Under the pieces are notes generated by a model. That model saw only the letters and a program-made list of their open reading frames with translations, did not search any database and was not told where the DNA came from. Made by a program: the position numbers and the translations under genes. Positions 37,340 to 56,989 of a stretch of DNA of 64,000 nucleotides are shown here, in pieces; the stretch's first letter is position 1; every line of letters starts with the position of its first letter. The DNA lies in NCBI GenBank assembly GCA_964639985.1, contig CAZXHG010000012.1, positions 1,254-65,253 of the forward strand, written 5' to 3'. The stretch is from an uncultured Rickettsiales bacterium (GTDB lineage Bacteria; Myxococcota_A; UBA796; UBA9615; CAYRNR01).

Positions 37340-37351
37340 CTCCGTACACCC

Positions 37352-38341
37352 CTAGAGGTAGTCATGGGCCACCACCTCGGGCAGGGGATGGAAGGCGACG
37401 GTGACGCCGTTGTTGAGGTAGATGCGGTTGATCGAGGCCACCAGATCGAGGATCTCACCCGGGGCGTCCAGCGTGCCCATGATCGCCGCGCTGTCGACCG
37501 TGTCGAGGTAGCGCAGTCCACTGATCATGGCGGCGAATTCCTCCGTTTCCAGGCCGTAGTGTGCGGCCATCAGGGCGTTTGCCTGATCGGGGTTTTCGCG
37601 CCAGAAATGGACCGCGTCGTTCCAGCTGGCCACCACCGCCCGTACGTCGTCGCCGCGATCGCGGAGCGTGGATGGTCGGAAGGCGAGGACGTCGACGATC
37701 ACCGTGTCGCGTCCGGCTGAGGAGGCCAGCAGATGGCCTCCCTCGCGCTGCGCTGCGTTGGTCAGCCAGGGCTCCCAGGTCACCGCGGCATCGACCTTGC
37801 CGGCCACGAATGCGGCCCCGGCATCGCCGGAGTCCATGTGGCGGCCGTCGATGTCGTCGATGGTCATGCCCCCACGATCCAGGTGGTATAGCAGGAAGAA
37901 GTGGCTGGGTGTGGCGGGCTGAAAGGCAACCGTCCTGCCTCGCAGCGAGCCCACCGAACGGATTTCTTCCGCAGCGACGATGCCGTCGCCGCCCTTGCTG
38001 CGGTCCAGCAGCAGCACGGCCACCGACTCGATCCCCTGGTCCACCTGCATCAGGATCGTGTCCAGCGAGGTGGTCTGGCCGTCCACCTCGCCGGCGGCGA
38101 GGGCAGCCCGCATCTCCTCCGCGCCCTTCATCGTGAGCAGCTCGACCTCGACGCCGTGTGATCCGTAGTACCCCTGGTCCTGGGCCAGGTACAGGGGCGC
38201 GAACCCAACCCAGATGTCCGTCGCGATGCGGATCGGCCGGGCGCGGCCCGAGCAACCGTAATCCTCGTAGAGAACGGACAGTCCGAAGGTCCCGAGGACC
38301 GCGGTGAGGGCGAGGAACAGGGCCAAGCGACGGTGACGCAT
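37352..38341 (-). CDS. Periplasmic substrate-binding protein (NMT1/SsuA/TauA-like)
   Basis: Start MRHRRLALFLALTAVLGTFG (signal peptide) inside ORF 37352-38545. NMT1-like fold hallmarks IRIATDIWVGFAPLYLA... Confidence 0.7.
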   Translation of the reverse strand: MRHRRLALFLALTAVLGTFGLSVLYEDYGCSGRARPIRIATDIWVGFAPLYLAQDQGYYGSHGVEVELLTMKGAEEMRAALAAGEVDGQTTSLDTILMQVDQGIESVAVLLLDRSKGGDGIVAAEEIRSVGSLRGRTVAFQPATPSHFFLLYHLDRGGMTIDDIDGRHMDSGDAGAAFVAGKVDAAVTWEPWLTNAAQREGGHLLASSAGRDTVIVDVLAFRPSTLRDRGDDVRAVVASWNDAVHFWRENPDQANALMAAHYGLETEEFAAMISGLRYLDTVDSAAIMGTLDAPGEILDLVASINRIYLNNGVTVAFHPLPEVVAHDYL

Positions 38342-38609
38342 CGGGATTTCTCGGACAGGAGGATTCAGATCTCTTCCAGGTCGCCCTAGCGACGAGGGTT
38401 GCGCGCAGCATACATCGGGCTGGTGCGGGTTGCATCCAGCGCTGATCGACCCCCTCGAATCCCGCTCTCCCCCCGAGGAGTCGACGTCTGTTCTCCGGTA
38501 TACTGCCGCGGGCGAGGTGCGTGGGCGAGGGGCAGCCGTGGCCACGGTTGGCCGGATGCCGGAGCCTCAACCCCAGTGCCTCTCGTCAGGCGGGCGGATA
38601 CTACCGACG

Positions 38610-40480
38610 TGAAAGACCGACCGACCATACTCGGATTGAATGCCGTCTACGGCCAGAGTTCTGCGGCCCTGGTGCGGGACGGTCAACTTGTGGCCGCCGT
38701 GGAGGAGGAGCGGTTCAACCGGATCTCCCACGCCAAGGCAGCCGAGGTGGACAACACCCCCGACCTCCCCTATGCCTCCATCGACTACTGCCTGGACGAG
38801 GCGGGGATCGAGTTCGAGGACATCGATCTGATCGGCTACTCCTTCGACGTCGGTGTGCGCCGTGAGCAGCGAAGTCGGTTGATGGAGTACGGCCCGGTGC
38901 TGCCCGGGGGGTACAAGACACCGGAGGGCGAGCGACGATTCGAGTCGTTCGTGATGCTGGTGCCGGAACTGCTGGCCGCACGCTACGGCTTGCACCCCGG
39001 TGACGTCTGGCGCCGCTTTCGGTTTCTCGAGCACCACCTCTGTCACCTGGCAGCCGCGTACTACGCGTCCCCGTACGACAGCGCCGCGGTAATGGCGATC
39101 GACGGTATCGGCGAGGCTGCCACCGTCTCTTTCGCACGGGCCGAGGGAAACGCACTGACGATCCTGCGCCAGATCGACTACCCCCACTCCGTCGGGTTCA
39201 TCTGGGAGCTGATTACGTCGTTCCTTGGCTTCAGGGGGGACCACGACGAGAGCAAGGTGATGGGACTGGCAGCCTACGGGGATCCTGAGCGGTTTGCCCG
39301 CCAGCTGTCCACGTTCCTGCGCATCACCGCGACCGGAGTCGAGGTGAGCGGATTCAAGCGACAGGACCGGCAGGAACTGCTTCGCCGTGACTACCACGCA
39401 CTGGAACGATATCTCGGTATCCAGCGCCGCCTACCCTACGAACCGTTGGCCTTCGAGGGGTCGAAGCGCGATCACGCCGATCTGGCTGCGGCCTTGCAGC
39501 GGCGGACCGAGGAGGTCTTCCTGCACCTCGGTGGCCTGCTGCACCGGGAGACCGGCGAGAGCCGGCTGGCCATGGCTGGCGGCGTCGCCCTCAACTGCGT
39601 GGCCAATGCACGGTTGGCCGAAGAGGGGCCGTTCGACGAGTTGTGGGTCCAGCCAGCGGCTGGCGACGCCGGGACGAGCCTGGGCGCTGCCTTGCTACTG
39701 CATTGCCATCCCGATCCCCGTCTGGGCGCTGGTGCGGGCCGCGTCCGGATGGACAGCGTCTACCTTGGCCCCGAATTCTCCGATGCCGAGATCAGCAACA
39801 CGTTGTGGCGCTATCGTCTGGTCCACCAGCGAGTGGACGATCCGGCCCGGACCGCAGCCGAGTTGCTCGCCGATGGCAAGATCATCGGCTGGTTCCAGGG
39901 GCGGATGGAATTCGGACCGCGGGCGCTGGGCAACCGCTGCCTGCTCGCGCATCCGGGTCGATACGAGATGCGCGAACGGCTCAACCTGCGCGTCAAGCAT
40001 CGCCACCCTTTCCGTCCATTCTGCCCTACCATGCGCGCCGAAGTGGCGTCCGAGTGGCTCCAATCGAGCCGGCCGGCATGCGACGCGGCGCAGTACATGC
40101 TCGCCGCCTACGCGATCAAGGAGGGACGCCGGGCCGAGATCCCGGCCGTGGTACACGCCGATGGCACGGCCCGGCTACAGGTGCTCCAACGAGAGCAGAA
40201 CCCGCTGTACTACGAACTGATCCGGCACTTCGAGCGGCTGACCGGCCTGCCTTTCGTGCTGAACACTTCGTTCAACGACCGCGAGCCCATCGTCTGTTCG
40301 CCGGATCATGCGGCTGAGTGCTTCCTCAAGACCGACTTCAGCGCCATGTTCCTTGGCCACTACCTTGTCGAGGGCCCCAAGCCCTGGGAGCGAGAGGAGG
40401 GAGAGAGCGCCACTTTCAGCGAGGTGCTCGAGGACTTCTACCGCAGTGGCCACAAGAATCGTGGGGGGGGGGAGCTACCG
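38610..40480 (+). CDS. Carbamoyltransferase (NodU/CmcH family); as given it reads through in frame into the next gene
   Basis: Probable GTG start 38610 (VKDRPTILGLNAVYGQSSAALVRDGQLVAAVEEERFNRISH, the NodU/CmcH N-terminal signature); ORF opens at 38399. C-terminal carbamoyltransferase region ...VLNTSFNDREPIVCSPDHAAECFLKTDFSAMFLGHYLVEG. No stop before ATG 40481 because of a G10 tract. Confidence 0.8.
40463..40472 (+). repeat. G10 homopolymer tract at the carbamoyltransferase / HEPN-kinase junction
   Basis: Ten consecutive G read as GGG GGG GGG G-AG. With G9 the frame becomes ...AGC TAC CGA TGA, placing a TGA stop overlapping ATG 40481. Confidence 0.9.
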
Positions 40481-43174
40481 ATGAGCGATGAACGCTTCGT
40501 GGTCAGTGATCATGCGATGTTCACGGTCGAGCAGTATCCCTTGCCGATCGGGGACGCTGCCAGGGATTTCAATCAGGGTTTCAGGAGTCTGAGCGACCGG
40601 GAACTTCAGAAGCAATGGCGAGACCAGTTCCTCGACTACGTCAACATCGCGGAGGATTGTTTCAGGCTGGCAACCAACGTGATGTTGGCCGAACTGTCCG
40701 TACGAGGTGACCTGGCCGATCTGAGGGAGTTCTTCACCAGCTACATGACCGAGACCATGACACTCGGCAGGTGGATTGACTCCACGTTCATGCTGGCGCA
40801 GAAGCCCACGGCTGACCAGGCGCGGAGTGAGCTGGCCGGAGGACGCTCCAGCGAACCTCGCTTCAGGAACCTGGTCGTCATCGGGTTCCCACGGAAGCAC
40901 AGCCGGCGGCAACATGCCCTCAAGATGCGTGACTATCGCAACAAGGTCGCTCACCGAAAGGGAAAGAGACAGAAAGCCAGACAAACCCCGCTGACAGATA
41001 TCCTGCGGATGCGTGACATCATGCTGGACGTGATGTCCGGCGGATTCTCCTTCCTTCGGCACTTCACACTCATTCAGGTATGCGCAAACGGGCAATGCAG
41101 GTTCATCTCCGACCTGGGTTCCTTCAGGGAATCACCCGTGCCCATCGAGAAGTTGTTCAAACACAATGATCTTGAGGAACTGATCGACGTCAGCAGGAAT
41201 GATGATCTTCTGCTGTTCGACGCCGTCCATAACTCGATCATGACCTTGTTTCCGTTCGTGGTTCTGAATCCGGCAAACAAGAAGGTGCCTGCGGTTTCCT
41301 GTTTGCATACGATTCATGGCATCGATGATCCTGCAGGAGCGACCTTCAGGTATTTCGATGGCGAGACGGACGGAGAGGACTGGCGACCCTCGACTGACCA
41401 GGAGGATCGCGCCCGAGGGTGGTTGCGAACCGTACTGCAAGCGAAGGCGCCGCCCGCAACACGGGGGGTCTTCCTGAGAAATGACCGCTGGCGAGTGCCC
41501 GGGCTCTTCGAACAGAAGATGTACGATACCAGTAGGAGGCAGAACAGGGAGTTGGCGACTCTCACCAGCGATGTTATCCCGGAAGGTACTGATGAGGCAG
41601 ATGTTGTTGGAAAGCCGTACAGGGTTGACGAGTACTTGGGGGAAGGCGCGCACGCGATAGTGTGGGGTGTCAGTGAGGTCGACGACCTCAGTAAGCGCTA
41701 TGCACTCAAGGTACTGCGACTGTGCTACGGGGAGGACAAGGTGCTCTCCCGATTCAAGCGGGAGGCCCGTGTGTTGCGCCGGTACACCATGGACGACAGG
41801 TGGTCTCCCTATCTCATCGATTGCTATGATCACGGATTCAACGAGAATGGCATGCAATGTCAATTGCTCGAAAAGGCGAAGTGGTCTCTCAAGGACAAGA
41901 TCGAGGAGTACGACCGAAGAGGAAACGAGTTGGCGGGGTGGAGCATCCCGCGGTGCATCCGTGAGTTCGATCGGTGCCGGTCAGAGCATCACGCGCGAAA
42001 CGTCGACCTTCTCGTGTCGGTTTTCTTGCGGCTGATGTTCGCCCTGTCGTGTGTCCGGAACATCCTGAGTGCGCTGGAGAAACTGCACGAAGGTGGCGTC
42101 GTGCACAGGGATATCAAGCCAGCGAATATCCTGTTCCTCCAGAGAGGCCAGATCAAGCTTGCCGATCTCGGCGCGTTGCACATTGAGAAGGAGGACTTTG
42201 AACAGACGCCTCTGGACAACATGGGGTCGACCCAGAGAAGCGAGATCATTGGGACCCATGGCTACATGCCACCGAACAGTTTCGAGTTGGCCGAGCCCAG
42301 GAATTTCAAGGCGGATGTCTTCTCTACAGGTGTCGTATTTCGAGAGATCCTGTTCGGGCTGCGTGTTACACCTGAGACCTATTTCAGCGACAGTGAAAAG
42401 GAGGTCAGGGAGTTCGGCAAGCTAGATGACCTGATCGTGGAGCAACTCGCATGGGACGGCGAGATGCTCGTCAGCGGGCTCGTCCAGAGCGCCACCAACC
42501 GCAACAAGGAGCGGCGGTGGAGTTCAACGCGGTTCCTCGACGAGGTCGTTGAATTCGAGAAGAAGTACTGCAAGAAGCTGATGCTGTGGGCAAAACGTCT
42601 GGGGTACTCCCAAGAGGGTACGGGGGCCCTGTTCGTCAGGGCGCTCACCAAGATTGGATTCGAGAACAAGACAGGACGCAATCACTGTTTCCTGTTGCCC
42701 AAGCACCCCGAAAGGGGCGAAACCAGGGAGTGTGTATTCAGGAGGAATGTCTCCAGCTTGAAGTCAACCAGTGTTGCCGCCAGGTTGTACACAAAATACA
42801 ATGTTGGCTCGCAGCAAGGACAGTTGCCACCGGACGCTGACGAACTGGACGTTCTCGAATACCTGGTCGAACACTCGGAAGAGTGCTTCACCGACCTGAT
42901 CGAGCTGGTCACCTATATGTTGGACACCTGTACCGGCTTCTACAATGACTGTCCGGCGCATGAGAAGTCCCGGAGGAACATCTCCAGGCTGCTTAAGAAC
43001 AGGAAGTACACGGACACGAATCCCGCGAAGGAAAGGGTGCGGGAAGTGATCGAGCCCGAGTCCGATGTGCATGGATACCAAGACAGACACCCGCGGCAGG
43101 AGGCCGGCGAAGCCCTCATCCACGCCGTGATGTTCGGCGGTCTCGACCAATCCGTCGAGCCGCAGGAGAGATGA
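40481..43174 (+). CDS. HEPN-like (Rx4H) domain fused to a Ser/Thr protein kinase domain, with unknown middle and C-terminal regions (897 aa)
   Basis: ATG 40481 (MSDERFVV). N-terminal ~165 aa helical with MRDYRNKVAHRKG (Rx4H, as in Abi_2/Swt1/KEN HEPN nucleases). Kinase: glycine loop LGEGAHAIVWG, Lys in YALKVLRL, catalytic HRDIKPANILF, DLG, GTHGYMPPN. Markedly lower GC than flanks. Confidence 0.6.
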   Translation: MSDERFVVSDHAMFTVEQYPLPIGDAARDFNQGFRSLSDRELQKQWRDQFLDYVNIAEDCFRLATNVMLAELSVRGDLADLREFFTSYMTETMTLGRWIDSTFMLAQKPTADQARSELAGGRSSEPRFRNLVVIGFPRKHSRRQHALKMRDYRNKVAHRKGKRQKARQTPLTDILRMRDIMLDVMSGGFSFLRHFTLIQVCANGQCRFISDLGSFRESPVPIEKLFKHNDLEELIDVSRNDDLLLFDAVHNSIMTLFPFVVLNPANKKVPAVSCLHTIHGIDDPAGATFRYFDGETDGEDWRPSTDQEDRARGWLRTVLQAKAPPATRGVFLRNDRWRVPGLFEQKMYDTSRRQNRELATLTSDVIPEGTDEADVVGKPYRVDEYLGEGAHAIVWGVSEVDDLSKRYALKVLRLCYGEDKVLSRFKREARVLRRYTMDDRWSPYLIDCYDHGFNENGMQCQLLEKAKWSLKDKIEEYDRRGNELAGWSIPRCIREFDRCRSEHHARNVDLLVSVFLRLMFALSCVRNILSALEKLHEGGVVHRDIKPANILFLQRGQIKLADLGALHIEKEDFEQTPLDNMGSTQRSEIIGTHGYMPPNSFELAEPRNFKADVFSTGVVFREILFGLRVTPETYFSDSEKEVREFGKLDDLIVEQLAWDGEMLVSGLVQSATNRNKERRWSSTRFLDEVVEFEKKYCKKLMLWAKRLGYSQEGTGALFVRALTKIGFENKTGRNHCFLLPKHPERGETRECVFRRNVSSLKSTSVAARLYTKYNVGSQQGQLPPDADELDVLEYLVEHSEECFTDLIELVTYMLDTCTGFYNDCPAHEKSRRNISRLLKNRKYTDTNPAKERVREVIEPESDVHGYQDRHPRQEAGEALIHAVMFGGLDQSVEPQER

Positions 43175-43177
43175 CCG

Positions 43178-45193
43178 ATGCTGAATACACGTGGAATCCA
43201 GTACCCGGATGACTACCCGCTCGCGATCCAGCGCCTGCAGCAGGCTTTGGTGATGCTGCGCGAGACGAGGGTCGCCCTGCTGGACAAATGGAAGCGCGAC
43301 AACCAGAAATTCCAGGACGAGTTCGTGGTAAAGGAGTCCGGCGGCACGGGTGGCGAGGACGTGCTGCACCTGCCCTTCATCTACGGACTCGAGACGCTGC
43401 TCATGCCCATCGGGTTGATCACGGCGGAGTGCGCAAAGCGCAAGCGGTTGGTGGAAAGCCTGGATGTGCTTGTGCCTGCGCTGAAGGACTTCCGAGTCGA
43501 CGACATCGACGAGAACACGATCAATGATATCAACGGCCTCGTGAAGCAGTTCGACCGGGAGATCGGACCGGCTGTACGCGCCGTCGACTACGAAGGTCTC
43601 AACGCACAGCCGTACTTCAACAAGTGGAACGACGATGCCAACGCATGGGCTACTGCGCTGTTTTTCGATGCCACGGACTACTTGAACTCGGCGGGCCTGA
43701 TCAACCCCGAGCAGTACATCGAACGGGTGAACAACCTATCGATGCTGCTCAAGAAATTTCTCTTTGCGAAGTACGTTGTCGAGTGGAAATCTGACCTGGA
43801 CGAGAACGTCCAGTTGTTCGGATTGACCTGGTACTTCAGCGACGAGTCCCGGCGACGGATCAGTCGATATTTCCAGAAAAGCGGATCCGACTTCGACGGC
43901 CCCGTGGTCCAGGCGTTCATCGAGGACTATTTCGTCTGCGAGACGCGGGCATTCTGCTCCAGGGCCGTCCTGGCGGTCTACGATGTGATCTACGACACCT
44001 TCGGCGATTCGGACATCGCGACCGACGAGATCAAGAAGCTGGTAGGCAGGATCGGGGCGAGGTTCGCCAAGGACCTAGCTCACCGCTATCTCCAGGACAT
44101 GGATAACTCCATCGAGCGAGCCTACTTCGACGATCTGTACCGCACCGACTATCTGGTACAGCTGTGGGGCGTGTACACGTCCTGCCTACACACGGGCATC
44201 ATTGCCGAGAGCCAGGGAGGGGAGGTCGAGATCGATTTGCTCGTCCGCTACCACGACGAGTTCTTGAAGCCTCTGCTCAAGACCATTCGGAGGGAGATTC
44301 GGGACGATCACTCACCCCTGTTCACGACGGTGAAGCCGTTCCTGATCTGGCTGGACGAGCCTGCAGAGATAGAGCCCGCGGACGTCCATCCGGAAGAGAC
44401 GGTGGAGAAGTTGGGGGAGGACCGTTGCCTGGTATTCCCCTACGTCTCCCTGCTCCCGATCATGTTGCGGTCGCTGGCCAACTACGCTGGTGCCCTGAAG
44501 GACATCAAGGATCCGGGGGGCAAGCAGAACGTCCGTCGGATGAGGAACGAAGCCCTCGATTGGATGCACGAGGTCCTGGAAGGTATGACCCAATTCGCCA
44601 TCTCGGACGGGGACGAAGCGGGGCTGTGGGCGTTTTCCGGGCAGTACGAACTGGCCTACACCGCATCCATCGCCGAGGCGCTGACGACCTATGCTTCGCA
44701 GTGTTTCAACGAGGTGGTGGATCTGGGGAGGACCCGGATCGTGGACTTGGCAGAGCCGTTGAGGAAGGCAGGATCGGCAGCTGGAGCGGTCGTATCCGAG
44801 GCAGACTCGGAGGCCGTGCGCGCGTTCAAGGAATTCCGCAAGGTTCTCGACCTGCAGGTCCGACGGATCGTTGCCGAGGAGTTGGACGGTCGTGATCTCC
44901 AGGGGCGGTCAGGTGGGAGCAGCCAGTGGATGGAGATATTCTTCGATATCATCGAGAACAAGGGCAACATGGCGCCTCACTCCAACGACGCCCTGCAGGC
45001 GATGAGGGATCTCATCAGGCTGTCCAAGCGGCTGGATCGGCTGCGGGGGCGCGGAGAACCGGAATGGGAGCAGCTGCGGGATAAGATCAAGTCGGGCTAC
45101 TTCAACAACGAGATAGCCTATGACGTGCTGACCCGGGAGTACCATGGCGACATCGACGACCTGCTGAAGAACAAGACGGACAAGACGAAGTGA
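43178..45193 (+). CDS. Hypothetical protein (671 aa), no recognisable domain; middle gene of the low-GC island
   Basis: Starts 4 nt after the stop of the HEPN-kinase gene. Uninterrupted ORF in the low-GC region. Its TGA overlaps the GTG of the next gene. Confidence 0.55.
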   Translation: MLNTRGIQYPDDYPLAIQRLQQALVMLRETRVALLDKWKRDNQKFQDEFVVKESGGTGGEDVLHLPFIYGLETLLMPIGLITAECAKRKRLVESLDVLVPALKDFRVDDIDENTINDINGLVKQFDREIGPAVRAVDYEGLNAQPYFNKWNDDANAWATALFFDATDYLNSAGLINPEQYIERVNNLSMLLKKFLFAKYVVEWKSDLDENVQLFGLTWYFSDESRRRISRYFQKSGSDFDGPVVQAFIEDYFVCETRAFCSRAVLAVYDVIYDTFGDSDIATDEIKKLVGRIGARFAKDLAHRYLQDMDNSIERAYFDDLYRTDYLVQLWGVYTSCLHTGIIAESQGGEVEIDLLVRYHDEFLKPLLKTIRREIRDDHSPLFTTVKPFLIWLDEPAEIEPADVHPEETVEKLGEDRCLVFPYVSLLPIMLRSLANYAGALKDIKDPGGKQNVRRMRNEALDWMHEVLEGMTQFAISDGDEAGLWAFSGQYELAYTASIAEALTTYASQCFNEVVDLGRTRIVDLAEPLRKAGSAAGAVVSEADSEAVRAFKEFRKVLDLQVRRIVAEELDGRDLQGRSGGSSQWMEIFFDIIENKGNMAPHSNDALQAMRDLIRLSKRLDRLRGRGEPEWEQLRDKIKSGYFNNEIAYDVLTREYHGDIDDLLKNKTDKTK

Positions 45194-46224
45194 ACATCGT
45201 CGCGTATTCGTACAAGGGCGGCTCCGGAAGGACGACCGCGGCGATGAACATCGCCGCCAACCTCTTCCGCCGGGGCAAGATCGTTTGCTGCATCGACTTC
45301 GACATCGGTGCGCCAGGCATGCACATGATCCTGGAAACGACCATTCCGCCGAGGGAAGGCGAAACCGACCTGATCGCTCGGCGGCTCGGTGACGTCTCCC
45401 CGCTTGGAGTGCAGCATTTCTTCAACAACCGTTACCCGCGCCCCGGCGTGGACGAGAGTACGTTCGTCGAGCAGGCGGTGGTCGACTACAAGGAGCATTA
45501 CGCCCAGCTCGCCTGGACGGAAGACGATGCACTCAACAAGAGAGACATGACGCAGGACGCCTTCGACCAGGGCGAGTTGCTGTACCTGGTCGCCTCCCCG
45601 GTTGCCGAATCGATTCGAGCCCTGGATGCCCAGAAGTTCGACATGATGGGATTCCGGCGCCGCTACCGTTCCCTGATGGAGCGGGTCGCCGACTACATCA
45701 ACGACAAGCGCGGCACCGACGAGGTGAGTGCCGAGGACATCTACTTCGTTCTGGATTCGGCGAGTGGCTTGACGCCGTTCAGCCTGCCGGTCCTCTTCCT
45801 GGCGCACGTGGTGCTCGTGTTCTTCCGGTGGAGCCACCAGCACATCGTCGGTACCGAACAGAATGCCGAGATCCTGCACCACAACCTCGACGAGCGGGTC
45901 GACTACTCGAACTGCCGCATCTACAAGGTGGGCTCCTGTTATGTCCCGGCCGGGGACAGCGATACGCTGAATCAGATGAAAGAAGAAGGGGATCTGGCGG
46001 CACGCCGCATCTTCGATCGGGAGACAGAACTTCGGACGGCCCTGGAGTCCGACCGGATGATCCGCTTTATCGATAGCATCCCCGAGCACCCCGCGTTGAA
46101 GTACTACGAGCGAATCGTCGCGCTGGCGATCGACGCGAAGACGAACTACGGCGGTGTCCGCGAGGCGCTGGACAACATCTGCGCACAGCTGGAAGACGAC
46201 CGACTGGTGCTCGACATCGATTGA
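45190..46224 (+). CDS. ParA/MinD-like (SIMIBI) ATPase with degenerate P-loop
   Basis: Deviant Walker A YKGGSGRTTAAMN (KGGxGKT expected; P-loop Lys replaced by Arg). A-prime-like CCIDFDIGAPGMH. GTG start overlaps the upstream TGA (GTGA). Confidence 0.6.
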   Translation: MNIVAYSYKGGSGRTTAAMNIAANLFRRGKIVCCIDFDIGAPGMHMILETTIPPREGETDLIARRLGDVSPLGVQHFFNNRYPRPGVDESTFVEQAVVDYKEHYAQLAWTEDDALNKRDMTQDAFDQGELLYLVASPVAESIRALDAQKFDMMGFRRRYRSLMERVADYINDKRGTDEVSAEDIYFVLDSASGLTPFSLPVLFLAHVVLVFFRWSHQHIVGTEQNAEILHHNLDERVDYSNCRIYKVGSCYVPAGDSDTLNQMKEEGDLAARRIFDRETELRTALESDRMIRFIDSIPEHPALKYYERIVALAIDAKTNYGGVREALDNICAQLEDDRLVLDID

Positions 46225-46253: not shown

Positions 46254-47282
46254 TCAGCGGACAAAACGGCCCCCCTGGCCGACGTCGTCCGGCGGCGGAT
46301 CCACGCGGTGCAAGCCGCTATCGGCGGCCGCGGCCGCCAGCGTGGCCACCAGTTCGTCGGCGGCGGCAGGCAGGTCGTCGAACAGGTAGCGAGGCAGGAA
46401 CGGGATCAGCTTGAGGGTCAGGTCGGCGTCGATGGCCGCCAGTCGGGCGGCCACAGCTCGGACCTCGAACACGTCGATGTAGCCGGGGACGACCAGGAGT
46501 GAAGGGCGGATCAACTCGACCCGCTCCGCGGGACCGAATTCCGCCCGAAGCCGCTCGATGTTGCGCCACACGCGAGTGTTACCTGTACCGGTGAGGGCAA
46601 GATGGACGGGTTCGGTGCCAGCCTTGAGACCGATGTTGAAGCCACCGCCCGAGTCGTGGACCAGGTGGGCGAATGGCAGCAGGAGATCCCCCGGCGCCGT
46701 CAGGTTGGTCTCGGCGCAGATACGCATCACCCGGTCGGCGTAGCGTTCCCGAACGAGCACGGCGATGCGTGTCACGGCCGCCAGCTGGACATCTGGTGTG
46801 CCCCCACAGAAGCAGACGCACGTCGTACGGTCGTCGATCCAGTCGAGGATCTCGTCGTCGGTGAATCGGGGCTTGGCCGTCTCGGCCATCGTCTTGTGGA
46901 TCCAGTCCTGGCAGAACAGACAGTCGAAGTTGCATCCCGCGGTGAACACCGCGAGGTTACGGCAGCCTGCCTCGACACCGGGACTGACCGCGAAATCAGG
47001 GTACCCGCAACCTGTGGTTCCGGGACACTGCCACGAGGCGATGCAGTTCGCCGGGTGATCGTCGTAGAACCCCATGGCGACCAGCATGTCGTCTTCCGGC
47101 ACAGGTCGTACCGGATCCGGCATGTCGCCAGATTGCCTCAGAGCCTGCCTTCGAGCCTGCTCCACGAGGGGAAGGGCCTGCTTAGGGTCGGTGCGCACGC
47201 AATCGACGCAGCATCCCACCGATCGAGCCACGATCACATCGTGACGACCGCACAGGGCACAGGGGAGAGGGGGGGCGTCCAT
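46254..47282 (-). CDS. Radical SAM enzyme (PflA-activase-like) with N-terminal Cys-rich zinc-ribbon-like motif
   Basis: Start MDAPPLPCALCGRHDVIVARSVGCCVDC. Radical SAM CX3CX2C in AVFTAGCNFDCLFCQDW. Glycine-rich VCFCGGTP. Confidence 0.7.
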   Translation of the reverse strand: MDAPPLPCALCGRHDVIVARSVGCCVDCVRTDPKQALPLVEQARRQALRQSGDMPDPVRPVPEDDMLVAMGFYDDHPANCIASWQCPGTTGCGYPDFAVSPGVEAGCRNLAVFTAGCNFDCLFCQDWIHKTMAETAKPRFTDDEILDWIDDRTTCVCFCGGTPDVQLAAVTRIAVLVRERYADRVMRICAETNLTAPGDLLLPFAHLVHDSGGGFNIGLKAGTEPVHLALTGTGNTRVWRNIERLRAEFGPAERVELIRPSLLVVPGYIDVFEVRAVAARLAAIDADLTLKLIPFLPRYLFDDLPAAADELVATLAAAAADSGLHRVDPPPDDVGQGGRFVR

Positions 47283-47286
47283 CGAT

Positions 47287-47979
47287 CTACCAGAATCCCT
47301 TCCACCACATCGCGAAGATGCTCTGCCACCAGTAGTCCAGGGCCTGGAAGTTCGGCGTGCCGGGAACGCCGGACGTTGCTTCGATGGCAGTCGCAGTTGC
47401 GGCCGTGTCGGCGCCTGCGAGCAGTCGTGTCGGGATGGCAGCGTGTCCGGGATACGGCTCGAACCGGGTGTCCTCGTCCGAATCGAGTTCGGCGCGGGTC
47501 GCCGAACCGAAGAAACGGAAGACGAGCTCGCGCATCTCGCCGTGCAGCTGCGTACGCCGGGCACGGCGCATCGCCGACCACCGCGGTATCTCAGCGCAGA
47601 TCAGATCTGCCAGCCGGCGCGCGGCGAGGTCGCGACGGCCTGGGCGGTATCGCCACTGGTCGGCGACGGAGGCGGTCGCGATGAGGCCGCCCGTCTCGCT
47701 GGCCTGTGAAGCGAGGTCCTGGACGAATTCCGGCCAGGGGCCGCATACGATCCAGGCGCCAGTGTCCGAGAGGTAGGACCGGGTGTTTGTTCCGTGGTCG
47801 AGTGTCACCCGGCCCGGTCCGTCGAGTACCTGTTCCGCAGAACACGCCGATGCCCATGCGCCGGGATCTTCGAGCAACAGGGTCGTCAGATGATGATTGG
47901 CCACCACGACGTGTCGGACGTCATCGTGGTCTATGACCTCGTAACGGCGCCCCTCAACCTTGACTAGGCGAAGCGGCAT
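47287..47979 (-). CDS. Hypothetical protein (230 aa), Trp-rich C-terminus
   Basis: ORF between two radical SAM genes, overlapping both by a few nt. No recognisable motif. Confidence 0.45.
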   Translation of the reverse strand: MPLRLVKVEGRRYEVIDHDDVRHVVVANHHLTTLLLEDPGAWASACSAEQVLDGPGRVTLDHGTNTRSYLSDTGAWIVCGPWPEFVQDLASQASETGGLIATASVADQWRYRPGRRDLAARRLADLICAEIPRWSAMRRARRTQLHGEMRELVFRFFGSATRAELDSDEDTRFEPYPGHAAIPTRLLAGADTAATATAIEATSGVPGTPNFQALDYWWQSIFAMWWKGFW

Positions 47980-49415
47980 GCATCCACCTCGGCGCCGGGG
48001 CCTCTCTCCAGCCGTTGCAGTCGGCCTAGTTCTTCCCGTGCCCTTTTTCGGAGCAAGCCCACGTCCAGATTCGGTCCGTCACCCGTCTGGCTGGTGAACA
48101 GGTTGGCTCTTCCGGTAGTGCTCACCCATCGCTTCGAGAGGATCGATCCAGTGTAGGCCTCGAAGAAGAGCTTCTCCACGTCAGACGGATCGATGCCTGG
48201 ATAGCGAACTACCGACCGCACACCGCTGTACAGCCGGAGGTCGGTGGAGGCCAGGCGGTCCTCGGCCAGGAGAGCCTGGAAGAGCGGCGTTCCGGGAACC
48301 GGGATGAGCAGCGTGAACACGTTGACGCAACCGCGATCCGTGAATTTTTCGGTAGCCCTCAGGCGGCGGTCGAGGCTGGTAGCATCGTCATCGGGCTCGC
48401 CGAGCAGGAACGATGTGGTGGGGAGCATGTCTGCCGCGACGAGCCGGTCCACAGCTCTGAGTGCGGTATCTGCGGCGAGTCCCTTGCTGTACCTGGCCAG
48501 GTTGGACTCCTCCAGCGACTCCACCCCGATCCACATCATCCGGCACCCAGCCTCGTGCAGGAGGGGGAGTAGATCCGCGTGTTGGACCACCCAGGCCGCA
48601 TGCCCGAAACACCACCAGCGGATCTCAAGCGACCGGTCGATCAGACCGCGGCAGATCGCCTCGACGCGGTCGGCACGGACGGTGAACGTGTCGTCCCAGA
48701 TAGACCAGTCGTGGATACCGTGCGTGACCACGCCGTGTTCGACTTCATCCAGCACGGCATCGATCGGTCGGGAGACATACCGTCCCTTGAAGTGTGCCGG
48801 TGTCGCGCAGAACACGCAGCGATGTGGGCAGCCTGTCGCGGTCAGGATGGGGAGGACCGGGAAGACCTCGCTTCCGGGGTCGTCGAGATAGAGGGAACGG
48901 GCGATGCCATAGCTCTCGATCCCTGGAACCAGGCAGGAGAGGCCATCCGCGCGTCGAAATCGAGGGCCATTCACGGGGCTGGGGGCCAGGTGGGAATCCA
49001 TGGCGGCTTCATCTGGAACCAGCCCATCCACGCTCCGGGCATCCTCTGCCGCCAGATCGGGAAAGCGGCGCGGCATGTATCCACCGAGCAGGATCTTCAC
49101 CGTGGGCAGCACCTCTCGTATACCGTGGGACAACTCGAGGTCGTAGGGATATGCTGCGGCGCCCATGAACACGTGTAGGTGGAGTTCCGGGAACGCTCCG
49201 ACGAGCACCAGGTCCGGATCAAGATCCGCCACGCGACTCGCGAGTGTCGGTGCGTCCTCGCGGAGCATCTGCCCGTCGAGGACCGTGACGTCGTGACCAC
49301 GATCCGTCAGCTTGGCGGCAACGCGGCAGGCGCCGTACGGCGGGCTGCTCATCCCCTGCGCGTAGTAGAACCACGAGAGGGCGCGGTTCCAGGCGTTGAC
49401 GAAGACGATCCTCAA
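47964..49415 (-). CDS. B12-binding-domain radical SAM protein (class B)
   Basis: N-terminal Rossmann-like B12-binding region (RIVFVN..., DLVLVGAF, KILLGG). Radical SAM motif LTATGCPHRCVFCATP. Confidence 0.75.
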   Translation of the reverse strand: MRIVFVNAWNRALSWFYYAQGMSSPPYGACRVAAKLTDRGHDVTVLDGQMLREDAPTLASRVADLDPDLVLVGAFPELHLHVFMGAAAYPYDLELSHGIREVLPTVKILLGGYMPRRFPDLAAEDARSVDGLVPDEAAMDSHLAPSPVNGPRFRRADGLSCLVPGIESYGIARSLYLDDPGSEVFPVLPILTATGCPHRCVFCATPAHFKGRYVSRPIDAVLDEVEHGVVTHGIHDWSIWDDTFTVRADRVEAICRGLIDRSLEIRWWCFGHAAWVVQHADLLPLLHEAGCRMMWIGVESLEESNLARYSKGLAADTALRAVDRLVAADMLPTTSFLLGEPDDDATSLDRRLRATEKFTDRGCVNVFTLLIPVPGTPLFQALLAEDRLASTDLRLYSGVRSVVRYPGIDPSDVEKLFFEAYTGSILSKRWVSTTGRANLFTSQTGDGPNLDVGLLRKRAREELGRLQRLERGPGAEVDACRFA

Positions 49416-50326
49416 CGACCATCCCCCTCGGGACCAGGAACAGCTGCCAGCCAGGACCGACTGAAGGCCAGCGTCTCGTCGCGACGGGGGTAGAGACGGC
49501 GGAAGTCGGCCCCCCGCGCGACGACGGCCTCCCGGGCGATGTGTCCGGGAAGCAGGGACCGGATCTCCCGTTTGATCCTCTCCTCGTCGAACGGTCGACA
49601 GGAGAAGAGATCGAGGTAGGCTTCGTCGCGTTCGGGATAGGCGTGCAACGTGATGTGGCTCTCGGCGATCATCGTCATCGCACTGAGCACCGGTCCGTGG
49701 GATGCTGTCTGGTTTCGCACCAGGTACGGGCGCATGATCGGCGTCATGCCCACGGCAGAGGGCAGCCGGTCGAACAGGTCGAAGAGCCGGTCCATGTCGT
49801 CGGGGCCATCGTACTCCTCGATATCCAGGAACAGGTGGGGTCCGAAATCGCTCGCGGGTTGGTGCGGTCGTTCGCTAGGGCTGTTCTGGGTCCGATCGAG
49901 CACGCCAAATTTCACATGTCGGCACGGGAACGCGTCCTGTAGGGCTGAGGCCACCTCCTCCTCGTCGTAGGGATCGGCGCTCACGAGGTCGAAGAAGAAT
50001 TCCTCGCGAAAGGGGAAGGTGTGCAACGTGATGTGCCCTCCGGCCAGGAACAAGAACGAGGAGATGCCTGCGTCCTCCGGCACGACCCCGTTGTAATAGG
50101 GGAGTATGAACGGCGGCATGGCCGGCCGTAGCCCCAATTCGGGGGGGACCTCTTCGAGGAATTCGTACACCAGATGGATGTCGTCGAAACGGGATCGGTA
50201 CCCCTGGATGCCGTCGTAGTGGAGGTGCTTCAAGTCGGTCTCCAGGCTGGGCGTGATCCGGCTGGATGCTGGGCGGCGGTAGGGCCTCGGTTGCCCGGGG
50301 GGTGGTGTCTGGTGAAGCCTGCCCAC
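49412..50326 (-). CDS. Tandem-duplicated S-adenosylmethionine decarboxylase-like (pyruvoyl-dependent) protein
   Basis: Two AdoMetDC(SpeH)-like halves. Half 1 has LFLAGGHITLHTFPF and lacks the processing Ser. Half 2 has MIAESHITLHAYPE, the canonical ES-H self-cleavage/pyruvoyl site. Confidence 0.6.
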   Translation of the reverse strand: MGRLHQTPPPGQPRPYRRPASSRITPSLETDLKHLHYDGIQGYRSRFDDIHLVYEFLEEVPPELGLRPAMPPFILPYYNGVVPEDAGISSFLFLAGGHITLHTFPFREEFFFDLVSADPYDEEEVASALQDAFPCRHVKFGVLDRTQNSPSERPHQPASDFGPHLFLDIEEYDGPDDMDRLFDLFDRLPSAVGMTPIMRPYLVRNQTASHGPVLSAMTMIAESHITLHAYPERDEAYLDLFSCRPFDEERIKREIRSLLPGHIAREAVVARGADFRRLYPRRDETLAFSRSWLAAVPGPEGDGR

Positions 50327-50404
50327 GGCTGGTTCATCGCAGCTTCGCCTTGGTCGGCATTCGCCAGGATGATCGGTGAGGCCATGTCGCGTCTGGCACC
50401 GGGA

Positions 50405-50550
50405 TCAGTCGTCGTACCACAGCGGTATCGAATCGGCCCTCAGGTCGTGCTTGGTGAACCCTGCCAGTTTGGCGTGATCGAAGTGCCAGCGCCGATCAGC
50501 CCTCCGCGCTAGGTCCAGGTGCAGGTAGCCAGCGTCAACGAAGATCATCC
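50405..50550 (-). CDS. Candidate small peptide (47 aa), possible leader/precursor of the radical-SAM cluster
   Basis: ATG preceded by AGGAGGAGG. Peptide MIFVDAGYLHLDLARRADRRWHFDHAKLAGFTKHDLRADSIPLWYDD. The ORF also opens further upstream at GTG 50641. GC3 bias weaker than in neighbours. Confidence 0.25.
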
Positions 50551-50637
50551 TCCTCCTCATACACGATCTCCCAGCGAAGCCCTCGGCGGGTCCGCCACTG
50601 TTGCGAGCTGCAGTATAGACAAGGTCCGGGGAGAGGT

Positions 50638-50907
50638 TCACCCCTCCTGGCTACGGTCAGGAGGAGAGGAGCCTGGAGTACCGCCCAGCCACTCCACAAC
50701 CACCAACCCCAACGGCCCCGCCATCGTCCACACCCCATCCGTGACCATGTCCCACACCTGGTAGCCCAGCCCGAAGTCCTTCCCCACGGCCCAGAAGTCC
50801 CACCAGTCGCGGGCCTCGCTCACGGACTGGATCAGCATCGCCGCCCCGAGCGCCCACAAACAGGTATGGGCGTGCCTCCATGCGACAGCGCGCACCAGCA
50901 GGTACAC
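50638..50907 (-). CDS. Small Trp-rich hypothetical protein (89 aa)
   Basis: Strong GC3 bias. One hydrophobic segment. Its stop overlaps GTG 50641 of the next ORF (GTGA). Confidence 0.3.
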   Translation of the reverse strand: MYLLVRAVAWRHAHTCLWALGAAMLIQSVSEARDWWDFWAVGKDFGLGYQVWDMVTDGVWTMAGPLGLVVVEWLGGTPGSSPPDRSQEG

Positions 50908-50998
50908 CGCCAGTCCGATGATCGCGTGCAGCAGCGGGTCGTCGAGTCCGGTTCTGCTGACCAGCTCCTTGACGTCGGTGATCAGCGCGCCCCCCCCC

Positions 50999-51739: not shown

Positions 51740-51754
51740 CCCTCCTGTCGTTCG

Positions 51755-53857: not shown

Positions 53858-53870
53858 CGGAGACCCTCCC

Positions 53871-56975: not shown

Positions 56976-56989
56976 CTCGCCGATGCGGA

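What the first reader, a model, noticed from the sequence alone, without database searches (positions are those of the whole stretch)
46254..50641. Radical SAM, unknown, B12-radical-SAM, fused AdoMetDC-like cluster with a possible upstream precursor peptide. Candidate novel modification or natural-product pathway
Four overlapping - strand genes combine a PflA-like radical SAM with a Cys-rich N-terminus, a class-B (cobalamin) radical SAM and a pyruvoyl-dependent AdoMetDC-like enzyme. The AdoMetDC-like enzyme would make decarboxy-SAM, an aminopropyl donor.

They are preceded by a ~310-bp leader region that can encode a 47-aa peptide with a perfect AGGAGGAGG SD.

Two radical SAMs plus a short upstream peptide is the classic RiPP layout. 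Adding an AdoMetDC homolog is unusual and could indicate aminopropylation chemistry. The cluster lies between the carbamoyltransferase-side island and the kinase/FHA cluster.
Basis: partly seen in the sequence, partly recalled or inferred. Interest (0 to 1): 0.65.

Follow-up and report, generated by a model that had tools for sequence, protein, structure and literature searches.

The report
Radical-SAM system around a Trp-tailed protein
The four genes are real, but they are the core of a larger, rare, horizontally spread gene system that appears undescribed, whose likely target is the "unknown" protein's invariant tryptophan-rich C-terminal tail rather than the small upstream ORF, and whose decarboxylase more likely makes agmatine than decarboxy-SAM.

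Summary
The four minus-strand genes exist as described. They are a fused AdoMetDC-like decarboxylase, a B12-radical SAM, an unknown 230-aa protein, and a PflA-like radical SAM with a Cys-rich N-terminus.

The upstream 47/51-aa ORF is not supported as a precursor. Its AGGAGGAGG abuts the ATG, and it has no relative in any of eight syntenic lineages.

The unknown protein defines a very rare family, about 17 clusters among 1.84 billion proteins. Its last six residues, WWKGFW-COOH, are invariant, while the body averages about 25% identity. Its gene always lies between the two radical-SAM genes, so it is the likelier substrate.

The decarboxylase is present in every lineage. It is AdoMetDC-like in four and a non-homologous pyruvoyl arginine decarboxylase in four, which suggests agmatine rather than dcSAM.

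The neighbouring genes are conserved with the core: carbamoyltransferase, kinase, a 650-aa helical protein, a KGGSGR ParA-like ATPase and an ABC importer. A variable slot holds TIR, KAP or ROCO-TIR genes, which is typical of conflict systems. I found no matching literature or curated family. The chemistry remains inferred.

The parts
49412..50233 (-). Fused double AdoMetDC-fold pyruvoyl decarboxylase (273 aa, TTG start). The N-domain is catalytically dead (GGH...A). The C-domain keeps the Ser, His(+5) and Cys(+20) triad. Probable arginine decarboxylase.
   Evidence: Pfam PF02675, 2 stretches. Alignment and motifs. Replaced by PvlArgDC in L016, L021, L022 and L024. Start supported by orthologues.
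47964..49415 (-). Class-B (B12-binding) radical SAM enzyme, 483 aa, with a CPHRCVFC cluster motif. Overlaps the decarboxylase stop by 4 nt.
   Evidence: PF02310 + PF04055. NCBIfam hits to BchE, HpnJ, PhpK and others are all far below their cut-offs. 35-50% identical orthologues in every lineage.
47287..47979 (-). 230-aa 'tail protein'. It has a folded alpha/beta body, a variable linker and an invariant C-terminal 17-mer. This is the signature protein of the system and the probable radical-SAM target.
   Evidence: No Pfam, NCBIfam, PADLOC or PDB sequence hit. Only 17-18 clusters in 1.84e9 proteins. Alignment A2. AF2 pLDDT 89.7. Always lies between the two radical-SAM genes.
47290..47343 (-). 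Codons for the C-terminal 18 residues, ALDYWWQSIFAMWWKGFW-COOH. The motif is L-x-Y-[WY]-W-[QE]-S-x-F-x-x-W-W-K-G-F-W.
   Evidence: The last 6 residues are invariant in 16 of 16 sequences. Tail pairwise identity is 74% against 25% for the body, and it is the lowest-entropy 18-mer in the protein. pLDDT for the last 10 residues is 56.
46254..47282 (-). PflA/NrdG/QueE-like radical SAM, 342 aa. It has an N-terminal CxxC...CCxxC ribbon, a GCNFDCLFC cluster motif and five further invariant Cys (C80, C86, C155, C159, C189).
   Evidence: Pfam and NCBIfam. Alignment A5. Orthologue N-termini fix the start at ATG 47282. No PDB relative by sequence.
45190..46224 (+). ParA/MinD-like ATPase with a variant Walker A, YSYKGGSGRT (P-loop Lys replaced by Arg). 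Convergent with the radical-SAM operon, with 29 nt between the stops.
   Evidence: NCBIfam NF047398, KGGVGR-motif AAA ATPase, 74.6 bits against a 90-bit cut-off. The same KGGSGR motif occurs in all 6 lineages checked. 30-34% identical orthologues.
43178..45193 (+). 671-aa all-helical protein of unknown function. Conserved in position but fast-evolving (about 21% identity).
   Evidence: Orthologues in L006, L017, L019 and L021. No family or PDB hit. Single-sequence AF2 failed.
40481..43174 (+). Ser/Thr protein kinase (897 aa in the JGI call) with HRDIKPAN and a DLG motif. Best defence-library match is MADS MAD6.
   Evidence: Pfam Pkinase. PADLOC and NCBIfam. Positional orthologues.
38609..40484 (+). 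NodU/CmcH-type carbamoyltransferase. In this assembly it is fused in frame to the kinase by a G10 tract at 40462-40471. The start coordinate is approximate.
   Evidence: PF02543 + PF16861. NodU 146 bits. 51-58% identical orthologues. Poly-G comparison.
35805..38326 (-). ABC importer: SsuA/NMT1-type binding protein (37352-38326), permease (36572-37339) and ATPase (35805-36575). Divergent from the carbamoyltransferase gene.
   Evidence: Pfam. NCBIfam SsuA_fam 132 bits. Permease and ATPase are 43% identical to genes directly upstream of the carbamoyltransferase in L019 and L021.
50405..50560 (-). Not supported as part of the system.
   Evidence: No tblastn relative in any syntenic locus. Only same-organism copies exist. 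No Pfam hit even at E<=10. The SD-like run abuts the ATG. Its coding-like GC3 periodicity remains unexplained.

Best explanation
The four genes are the enzymatic core of a conserved, horizontally transferred system of about 12 genes, at window ~35.8-50.2 kb.

**Composition of the system (shown)**
- Core: B12-radical SAM, a ~220-aa 'tail protein' and a PflA-like radical SAM, always in that order and tightly coupled.
- A pyruvoyl-dependent decarboxylase.
- A carbamoyltransferase, a Ser/Thr kinase, a ~650-aa helical protein and a ParA-like ATPase with KGGSGR.
- An SsuA-type ABC importer.
- In most lineages, one variable TIR, KAP or ROCO-type gene.

**Mechanism (inferred)**
- The tail protein is the substrate or carrier.
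- Its flexible, invariant C-terminal peptide (...Y-W-W-Q/E-S-x-F-x-x-WWKGFW-COOH) is modified by the two radical-SAM enzymes. Possible chemistry is C-methylation and/or C-C or C-H chemistry on Trp, Lys or Gly.
- The tail's invariant Ser and Tyr may also be targets of the kinase and the carbamoyltransferase.
- The decarboxylase supplies agmatine from arginine, not dcSAM. Agmatine could be a co-substrate or a signal.
- The matured, strongly membrane-seeking tail would then act as effector or signal in a conflict or immunity-type system gated by the kinase, ATPase and TIR or KAP components.
For: **Conservation of the gene set**
- The B12-rSAM / tail / rSAM order, with overlapping or abutting genes, holds in all 8 lineages: window, L006, L016/L017, L018, L019, L021, L022 and L024.
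- These lineages span GC 39-68% and include Sedimenticola, Aminicenantes and Acidobacteria MAGs.
- The enzymes stay 35-58% identical. The tail body, kinase and 650-aa protein drift to about 21-39%.

**The tail**
- WWKGFW-COOH is invariant in 16 of 16 sequences, down to 18% overall identity.
- Tail identity is 74% against 25% for the body.
- AF2 gives a confident body (pLDDT 89.7) but a low-confidence terminal decapeptide (56). This fits an exposed tail.

**Rarity**
- The tail family has 18 hits in 1.84e9 representatives.

**The decarboxylase**
- It is present in 8 of 8 lineages.
- It is the AdoMetDC-fused form in four and PvlArgDC in four. L021's copy passes the TIGR00286 equivalog cut-off, and the SS cleavage motif is present.
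- SpeDA and pyruvoyl ADC are likewise interchangeable in agmatine-using SpeY clusters (PMC13625781).
- A family member (P0067) is fused to a deoxyhypusine-synthase/SpeY-type domain.

**Conflict-system flavour**
- The variable slot holds TIR, TIR-FGE, LRR-Roc-COR-TIR or a QatA-like KAP NTPase.
- The kinase's best match is MAD6.
- The KGGSGR ATPase resembles the 'inactive MinD/ParA' of the peptide-processing conflict systems described in PMC7159879.

**Horizontal origin**
- Island GC3 is 0.73-0.88, against 0.92-0.96 in the flanking genes.
Against: - No modification has been observed. All of the chemistry is inferred.
- No peptidase, RRE or SPASM domain is in the conserved set. Release of a peptide is therefore unsupported.
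- An invariant core is atypical of RiPP antibiotics. It resembles cofactor precursors or docking motifs instead.
- The tail is predicted to partition strongly into the membrane interface (about -7 to -13 kcal/mol). It could simply be an anchor.
- The decarboxylase family also occurs with KGGxGR ATPases in loci that lack radical SAMs. It may serve the ATPase/kinase side rather than the radical-SAM side.
- An ABC importer is unusual in a defence system.
- The window's own copy lacks any TIR or KAP gene.
- The AdoMetDC-like enzyme's substrate was not determined. Characterised SpeD fusions are AdoMetDC + ODC (PMC10407285).
Confidence: 0.45

Rival explanations
1. Small-molecule pathway. The two radical SAMs, the carbamoyltransferase, the kinase and the decarboxylase tailor an arginine/agmatine-derived (or imported) metabolite. 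The tail protein is a non-substrate subunit, scaffold or regulator. Its Trp-rich C-terminus is a membrane anchor or docking motif.
For: - A commodity-type decarboxylase has been swapped repeatedly. In-system copies are not each other's nearest relatives.
- The ABC importer and an O-carbamoyltransferase of the natural-product type (NodU/CmcH) are conserved.
- No protease, RRE or SPASM domain is present.
- The tail has a very favourable predicted interfacial partitioning energy.
- The tail protein has a confident globular fold.
Against: - Membrane-targeting helices usually conserve amphipathicity, not sequence. Here six terminal residues are invariant across phyla.
- The gene is always wedged between, and translationally coupled to, the two radical-SAM genes.
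- The PflA-like enzyme's nearest families mostly act on proteins.
Confidence: 0.27
2. Protein-derived cofactor or radical carrier. The invariant tail is converted into a fixed redox or quinone-type cofactor, in the manner of PQQ, mycofactocin or CTQ/TTQ, or it carries a stable radical. The system would then be metabolic rather than conflict-related.
For: - An invariant core peptide at the exact C-terminus is the pattern seen in cofactor precursors such as MftA and PqqA (established knowledge).
- The motif is rich in Trp and Lys.
- The radical SAM is a PflA-like, activase-type enzyme.
Against: - No partner oxidoreductase or dehydrogenase is conserved in the locus.
- The neighbours are a kinase and ParA-like, TIR and KAP types.
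- From memory, the glycyl-radical fingerprint is RVxG[FY]. Only G-F matches here.
- The family is extremely rare and patchy, which is unlike a cofactor.
Confidence: 0.1
3. This is a RiPP cluster whose precursor is the 47-aa ORF upstream of the AdoMetDC-like gene, and dcSAM provides aminopropyl groups.
For: - The ORF exists and has a coding-like GC3 pattern.
- Two gene callers predict it, at 47 or 51 aa.
Against: - It has no relative in any of the syntenic loci.
- The decarboxylase gene it precedes is downstream, or on the opposite strand, in other lineages.
- The SD-like run has zero spacing from the ATG.
- PvlArgDC cannot make dcSAM.
Confidence: 0.03
4. Chance adjacency. The decarboxylase is a housekeeping polyamine gene that merely neighbours an unrelated radical-SAM operon.
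For: - The fused AdoMetDC family is large, with 469 hits.
- In L005 it sits next to argininosuccinate synthase, with no radical SAMs nearby.
Against: - A pyruvoyl decarboxylase of one or the other fold is present in 8 of 8 lineages, despite rearrangements.
- It overlaps the B12-radical-SAM gene by 4 nt in the window.
Confidence: 0.02

Closest known systems
FxSxx-COOH (FxsA/FxsB/FxsC) and related peptide-processing modules of NTP-dependent conflict systems (Haft and Basu 2011; Kaur et al. 2020, PMC7159879)
   Same: - A small protein with a variable body and a conserved extreme C-terminal motif, encoded beside a radical-SAM maturase.
- Linked to TIR and NTPase genes and to an 'inactive MinD/ParA-like' ATPase.
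- One described subtype uses a Memo/AMMECR1-type (PflA-like) radical SAM.
   Different: - The motif is WWKGFW-COOH, not FxSxx.
- No zincin peptidase and no SPASM domain are present.
- It has two radical SAMs, one of them B12-dependent.
- It adds a pyruvoyl decarboxylase, a carbamoyltransferase, a kinase and an ABC importer.
- The carrier is a folded protein of about 220 aa.
- No NCBIfam Fxs model matches.
SpeD-SpeD fusion decarboxylases and the SpeDA / pyruvoyl ADC enzymes of polyamine metabolism (Li et al. 2023, PMC10407285; PMC13625781)
   Same: - Two class-1b AdoMetDC folds in one chain of about 270 aa.
- A Ser, His and Cys catalytic triad.
- AdoMetDC-fold and PvlArgDC-fold arginine decarboxylases are interchangeable in gene clusters.
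   Different: - Here the N-domain is the dead one and the C-domain is active. Characterised fusions have an active N-terminal AdoMetDC, with a C-terminal ODC that is active or degraded.
- No SpeE, SpeB or SpeY is in the locus.
- The score is below the TIGR03330 cut-off, 50.6 against 75.65.
Class-B radical SAM enzymes acting on peptide or protein residues (TsrM, Mmp10, PoyB/C type)
   Same: A B12-binding domain plus a CX3CX2C radical-SAM core. There are weak hits to TsrM, AprD4 and the MCR Gln C-methyltransferase.
   Different: All matches are far below the family cut-offs. The substrate and the reaction type are unknown.
AmmeMemoRadiSam and glycyl-radical activase (PflA/NrdG/YjjW) radical SAMs
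   Same: A small PflA-like radical-SAM core with a Cys-rich N-terminal extension.
   Different: - It scores 19-31 bits against cut-offs of 131-250.
- No AMMECR1, Memo or glycyl-radical enzyme is present.
- It carries five additional invariant cysteines.
Anti-phage systems with KAP, TIR or kinase components (Qat, Thoeris, MADS)
   Same: The variable-slot genes match QatA-like KAP ATPases and TIR_2. The kinase matches MAD6, and the ParA-like ATPase matches PDC-M28B.
   Different: None of the four core genes matches any PADLOC model. No complete known system is present.

Membership tests
Radical-SAM RiPP / 'tail-COOH' maturation system | A genetically encoded substrate with a conserved motif, lying adjacent to the maturase | tested here: met
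   The tail protein is always between the two radical-SAM genes. WWKGFW-COOH is invariant in 16 of 16 sequences.
Radical-SAM RiPP / 'tail-COOH' maturation system | SPASM or twitch auxiliary-cluster domain, or an RRE, in the maturase | tested here: not met
   No SPASM or RRE Pfam/NCBIfam hit at E<=0.01 in either enzyme. Extra invariant Cys exist but are not in a SPASM arrangement.
Radical-SAM RiPP / 'tail-COOH' maturation system | A leader peptidase or other means to release the core | tested here: not met
   No peptidase domain occurs among the conserved genes in any locus.
Radical-SAM RiPP / 'tail-COOH' maturation system | Covalent modification of the peptide | not testable with these tools
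   Requires expression and mass spectrometry.
   tblastn against all loci finds only same-organism copies. The cluster look-up agrees.
AdoMetDC / SpeD (class 1b) | PF02675 fold with the self-processing Ser, plus His and Cys | tested here: met
   Two PF02675 stretches. The C-domain ESH..H..C aligns to T. maritima S63/H68/C83. The N-domain lacks the Ser and the Cys.
AdoMetDC / SpeD (class 1b) | Equivalog-level score and SAM as substrate | tested here: not met
   TIGR03330 scores 50.6 bits against a 75.65 cut-off. Displacement by PvlArgDC argues for Arg. Substrate not assayed.
Pyruvoyl arginine decarboxylase (PvlArgDC) in sister loci | Curated family score and the SS cleavage motif | tested here: met
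   L021 scores 136.7 bits against the TIGR00286 cut-off of 106.95. L016, L022 and L024 match PF01862. The SS motif is present.
Class-B (cobalamin) radical SAM | N-terminal B12-binding domain plus a CX3CX2C radical-SAM core | tested here: met
   PF02310 scores 32.2 (cut-off 32.1) and PF04055 is present. The motif is CPHRCVFC. No specific subfamily cut-off is reached.
Glycyl-radical enzyme / activase pair | Activase equivalog score, and an RVxG[FY] motif in the partner | tested here: not met
   PflA, NrdG and YjjW score 20-31 bits against cut-offs of 131-250. The tail has only G-F of the motif (motif recalled from memory).
AmmeMemoRadiSam system | TIGR04337 radical SAM plus AMMECR1 and Memo genes | tested here: not met
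   19.4 bits against a 220 cut-off. No AMMECR1 or Memo in any locus.
Known anti-phage defence systems (PADLOC 2.0) | Core genes match the system's models | tested here: not met
   No hit for any of the four core genes. Only generic kinase, KAP, ParA-like and TIR matches among the neighbours.
KGGVGR-motif variant AAA ATPase (NF047398) | ParA-like fold with the Walker A Lys replaced by Arg | tested here: inconclusive
   74.6 bits against a 90-bit cut-off. The motif YSYKGGSGR[ST]T is invariant in 6 lineages.

The most novel reading that the evidence does not exclude
This is a previously unrecognised class of bacterial conflict or signalling system. A dedicated carrier protein's invariant Trp-rich C-terminus (WWKGFW-COOH) is rebuilt by a B12-radical SAM and an activase-like radical SAM. 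It may be further carbamoylated, phosphorylated or capped with agmatine. The product would be a membrane-active effector or a fixed-structure signal, deployed under the control of the kinase, the KGGSGR-ATPase and the TIR or KAP components. More broadly, pyruvoyl arginine decarboxylases paired with KGGxGR ATPases may mark an agmatine-dependent branch of prokaryotic immunity.
Probability: 0.25. Interest if true: 0.88.

Novelty: new variant of a known kind. Interest (0 to 1): 0.7.

Why it matters
If the tail is the radical-SAM substrate, this defines a new post-translational chemistry on a Trp, Lys and Gly motif. The enzyme pairing, class-B plus activase-like with no SPASM domain, has not been linked to protein maturation before.

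It would also link radical-SAM protein modification, and probably agmatine supply, to TIR, KAP and kinase-type conflict machinery. That extends the FxSxx-COOH paradigm.

The analogous displacement of an AdoMetDC-fold enzyme by a PvlArgDC-fold enzyme gives a concrete, testable functional assignment for a large unassayed subfamily of fused SpeD homologues, those with a dead N-domain and an active C-domain.

The system is compact, has a unique searchable signature (WWKGFW-COOH), and is directly testable by co-expression and mass spectrometry.

Tried and rejected
- **Upstream ORF as precursor:** rejected. No conservation, no family hit, poor SD geometry.
- **Riboswitch or other RNA in the 765-nt leader:** no Rfam hit at gathering score in the whole window, nor at E<=1 in 50150-51100.
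- **Glycyl-radical protein idea:** the motif does not fit.
- **Structure of the 671-aa protein:** The single-sequence model was unusable (pLDDT 38.8). The profile search against PDB found nothing.
- **AFDB Foldseek:** library unavailable.
- **Plasmid and viral collections:** no relatives of the tail protein or the PflA-like radical SAM.
- **Literature searches:** WWKGFW, KGGVGR and the gene combination returned nothing relevant.
- **tRNAs, sigma-70 promoters, island-flanking elements:** nothing informative.
- **Homology between the 650-aa protein and the 666/700-aa proteins of the second decarboxylase-containing locus type:** none.
- **Limitation of the GTDB scan:** it used patterns specific to the window's subclade. 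The count of lineages is therefore a lower bound.

Full report
**1. What is in the sequence**

The region holds four co-directional minus-strand genes.

- The first gene (49412-50233, TTG start, 273 aa) has two AdoMet_dc (PF02675) stretches.
- The second (47964-49415, 483 aa) has a B12-binding domain and a Radical_SAM core (CPHRCVFC). Its weak best matches are BchE, HpnJ, PhpK and other class-B enzymes, all far below their family cut-offs.
- The third (47287-47979, 230 aa) matches nothing in Pfam, NCBIfam or PADLOC, and nothing in PDB sequences.
- The fourth is a Radical_SAM protein most similar to NrdG, YjjW-activase, QueE, PflA and AmmeMemoRadiSam enzymes, at 16-31 bits against cut-offs of 126-260.

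Orthologue N-termini place the fourth gene's start at ATG 47282 (342 aa). That start keeps the CxxC...CCxxC ribbon. The longer 436-aa reading overlaps the third gene and has a non-coding codon-position GC pattern.

The first three genes overlap by 4 nt and 16 nt. The fourth starts 4 nt after the third gene's stop.

**2. The proposed precursor peptide**

The sequence upstream of the decarboxylase reads ...GTATGAGGAGGAGGATGATC....

- AGGAGGAGG touches the ATG of the 47-aa ORF, so there is no spacer for a Shine-Dalgarno function.
- The same bases are read as Arg-Arg-Arg in the 51-aa ORF that JGI calls from 50560.
- tblastn of this ORF, and of the next small ORF (50638-50907), against all fetched loci finds only identical copies from the same organism.
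- The exact-sequence cluster look-up shows only alternative start calls.
- Pfam finds nothing even at E<=10. Rfam finds nothing in the leader.
- In other lineages the decarboxylase gene lies downstream of the radical-SAM genes or on the opposite strand. There is therefore no conserved 'leader' position.

Both small ORFs do show coding-like GC3 periodicity, and that stays unexplained.

**3. The 'unknown' protein is the signature of the system**

A word-indexed search of 5.8 billion proteins found only four relatives. An exhaustive profile search of 1.84 billion representatives found 18 hits, one of them spurious.

Sixteen members were aligned (A2).
- The body averages 25% pairwise identity, with a minimum of 10%.
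- The last 18 residues average 74%.
- The last six, WWKGFW, are invariant and always end the protein. Y216, S220 and F222 are also invariant.
- This is the lowest-entropy 18-residue window in the protein.

AlphaFold2 gives a confident alpha/beta body (mean pLDDT 89.7, pTM 0.86). The final ten residues drop to 56, as expected for an exposed tail.

Fold searches give only weak similarities.
- Foldseek: TBP-like hits, TM ~0.24.
- Profile-profile comparison with the decarboxylase family is negative.

Using Wimley-White values recalled from memory, the tail's predicted interfacial partitioning energy is -7 to -13 kcal/mol. It should therefore bind membranes avidly unless it is sequestered or modified.

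**4. The cluster is conserved and larger than the finding**

Contexts were recovered for eight lineages.

| Lineage | Source |
|---|---|
| window organism | this window |
| L006/L013 | GC 58% |
| L016/L017 | Sedimenticola MAG and a relative |
| L018 | metagenome contig |
| L019 | Aminicenantes MAG |
| L021 | GCA_024449895.1 |
| L022 | Acidobacteria MAG |
| L024 | Logan assembly |

In all eight, the order is B12-radical SAM, tail protein, PflA-like radical SAM, with overlapping or abutting genes.

Wherever the contig reaches far enough, the same neighbours appear: a NodU/CmcH-type carbamoyltransferase, a Ser/Thr kinase, a ~650-aa helical protein, and a ParA-like ATPase.
- These correspond to window 38609-46224 on the plus strand.
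- Identities to the window are 51-58% for the carbamoyltransferase, 30-34% for the ATPase, and about 21-28% for the kinase and the helical protein.
- The ATPase carries YSYKGGSGR[ST]T in every lineage checked, with the P-loop lysine replaced by arginine. It matches NCBIfam's KGGVGR-motif ATPase.

An ABC importer also belongs to the system.
- It comprises an SsuA/NMT1-type binding protein, a permease and an ATPase, at window 35805-38326 on the minus strand.
- Its permease and ATPase are 43% identical to genes directly upstream of the carbamoyltransferase in L019 and L021.

The island's GC3 is 0.73-0.88, against 0.92-0.96 in the flanking FHA and kinase genes. Overall GC also dips across the island. 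Both indicate horizontal acquisition.

No relatives were found in the plasmid or viral collections.

**5. The decarboxylase**

A pyruvoyl-dependent decarboxylase is present in all eight lineages, but it comes in two unrelated folds.
- The fused AdoMetDC type occurs in the window, L006, L018 and L019.
- PvlArgDC (PF01862) occurs in L016, L021, L022 and L024.
- L021's enzyme passes the TIGR00286 equivalog cut-off (136.7 against 106.95). All four PvlArgDC copies keep the Ser-Ser cleavage site.

The activity the two folds are known to share is arginine decarboxylation.
- AdoMetDC-fold SpeDA enzymes are described in PMC10407285.
- PMC13625781 documents the same interchange in agmatine-using SpeY clusters.
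- One family member (P0067) is fused to a deoxyhypusine-synthase/SpeY-type domain.

In the window enzyme, and across its whole family, the N-domain lacks the processing Ser and the catalytic Cys (GGH...A). The C-domain keeps the Ser, His+5 and Cys+20 triad. This is the reverse of the characterised SpeD1-SpeD2 fusions.

In-system decarboxylases are not each other's closest relatives, which suggests repeated recruitment.

I therefore infer agmatine rather than dcSAM as the product, with a probability of about 0.6. No assay was possible.

**6. Conflict-system flavour**

A variable gene occupies a slot between the radical SAM and the decarboxylase, or next to them.
- TIR_2 in L006.
- TIR-FGE-sulfatase in L016.
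- LRR-Roc-COR-TIR in L018.
- A QatA/PifA-like KAP NTPase with pentapeptide repeats in L019, L021, L022 and L024.
- None in the window.

The kinase's best defence-library match is MADS MAD6, and the ATPase's is PDC-M28B. None of the four core genes matches any PADLOC model.

The nearest described concept is the peptide-processing modules of NTP-dependent conflict systems in Kaur et al.. Those have a small protein with a conserved C-terminal motif (FxSxx-COOH and others), a radical SAM (SPASM-type or Memo/AMMECR1-type), TIR-NTPase genes and an inactive MinD/ParA-like domain.

The present system shares that logic but differs in nearly every component.

**7. Most likely mechanism and its rivals**

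*Shown:*
- the gene set and its conservation;
- the invariant tail;
- the displacement between decarboxylase folds;
- the compositionally foreign island.

*Inferred, confidence about 0.45:*
- the two radical SAMs modify the tail of the carrier protein;
- the kinase and the carbamoyltransferase may act on the tail's invariant Ser and Tyr;
- agmatine is a co-substrate or signal;
- the product acts as a membrane-directed effector or signal in a conflict-type system.

*Main rival, about 0.27:* a small-molecule pathway in which the tail protein is a membrane-anchored subunit.

*Further rivals:*
- a protein-derived cofactor, about 0.1;
- chance adjacency of a housekeeping polyamine gene, about 0.02.

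*Evidence against my reading:*
- there is no peptidase, RRE or SPASM domain;
- an importer is unusual in a defence system;
- the window copy lacks a TIR or KAP gene;
- the same decarboxylase family is paired with a KGGAGR ATPase in loci without radical SAMs, so the decarboxylase may serve the ATPase/kinase side of the system.

**8. Novelty**

No curated family, defence model or paper in the searchable library covers the tail protein or this gene combination.

I classify it as a new variant of a known kind: radical-SAM maturation of a conserved C-terminal tail embedded in conflict-type machinery. I give a 0.25 chance that it is a genuinely new class with agmatine-linked chemistry.

Noticed in passing
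window 40462-40471: There is a homopolymeric G tract at the carbamoyltransferase/kinase junction. It is G10 in the window, which fuses the two genes into one 1591-aa ORF. It is G9 in the JGI contig of the same organism (L009), which gives two genes with an ATGA overlap, as in all other lineages. This is either an assembly error or slippage-prone variation.
   Followed up: partly
L027 4891-8711; L028 3009-6829; L025 7384-8819; L026 3402-5465: Close relatives (51-55% identity) of the fused decarboxylase sit in different NTPase-rich loci that have no radical SAMs. Those loci hold a HerA/TrwB-like ATPase, large unknown proteins and a CxxCxxCC protein. L027 and L028 also carry a ParA-like ATPase that again has KGGAGR, with the P-loop Lys replaced by Arg. 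The decarboxylase + KGGxGR-ATPase pair may be a recurring module.
   Followed up: partly
window 50405-50560 and 50638-50907 (minus strand): Two small ORFs lie in the 765-nt gap between the FHA gene and the decarboxylase. Both show coding-like GC3 periodicity but have no detectable relatives or family matches. They could be orphan genes or remnants of a lost variable-slot gene.
   Followed up: partly
L018 8495-9672; L019 14267-14809; L021 14022-15165: A family of small proteins (about 150-215 aa) is conserved downstream of the system in the low-GC lineages, in tandem pairs in L018 and L021. The one L018 copy read has an N-terminal hydrophobic, TM-like segment. The family is absent from the window, L006 and L016 and has no Pfam match.
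   Followed up: partly
window 50999-57554 and beyond (minus strand): The flank is a cell-wall and signalling cluster. It holds an FHA protein, a 700-aa Ser/Thr kinase, a fused FtsW/RodA-transpeptidase, a PP2C phosphatase and a kinase-FGE-sulfatase protein. Its GC3 is very high (0.92-0.96), so it is probably native chromosome bordering the island.
   Followed up: no
window 32092-35667 (minus strand): A 1191-aa ORF with no Pfam match lies just beyond the ABC transporter genes, with GC3 0.82. I did not test whether it is a real gene or belongs to the island.
   Followed up: no
window 46257-46281 (minus strand): This is the only terminator-like hairpin in 45.9-51.1 kb (GGCCAGGGGGGCCG followed by a T-run). 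It overlaps the last codons of the PflA-like radical-SAM gene, in the 29-nt convergent junction with the ParA-like gene. The count is not above shuffled expectation.
   Followed up: no
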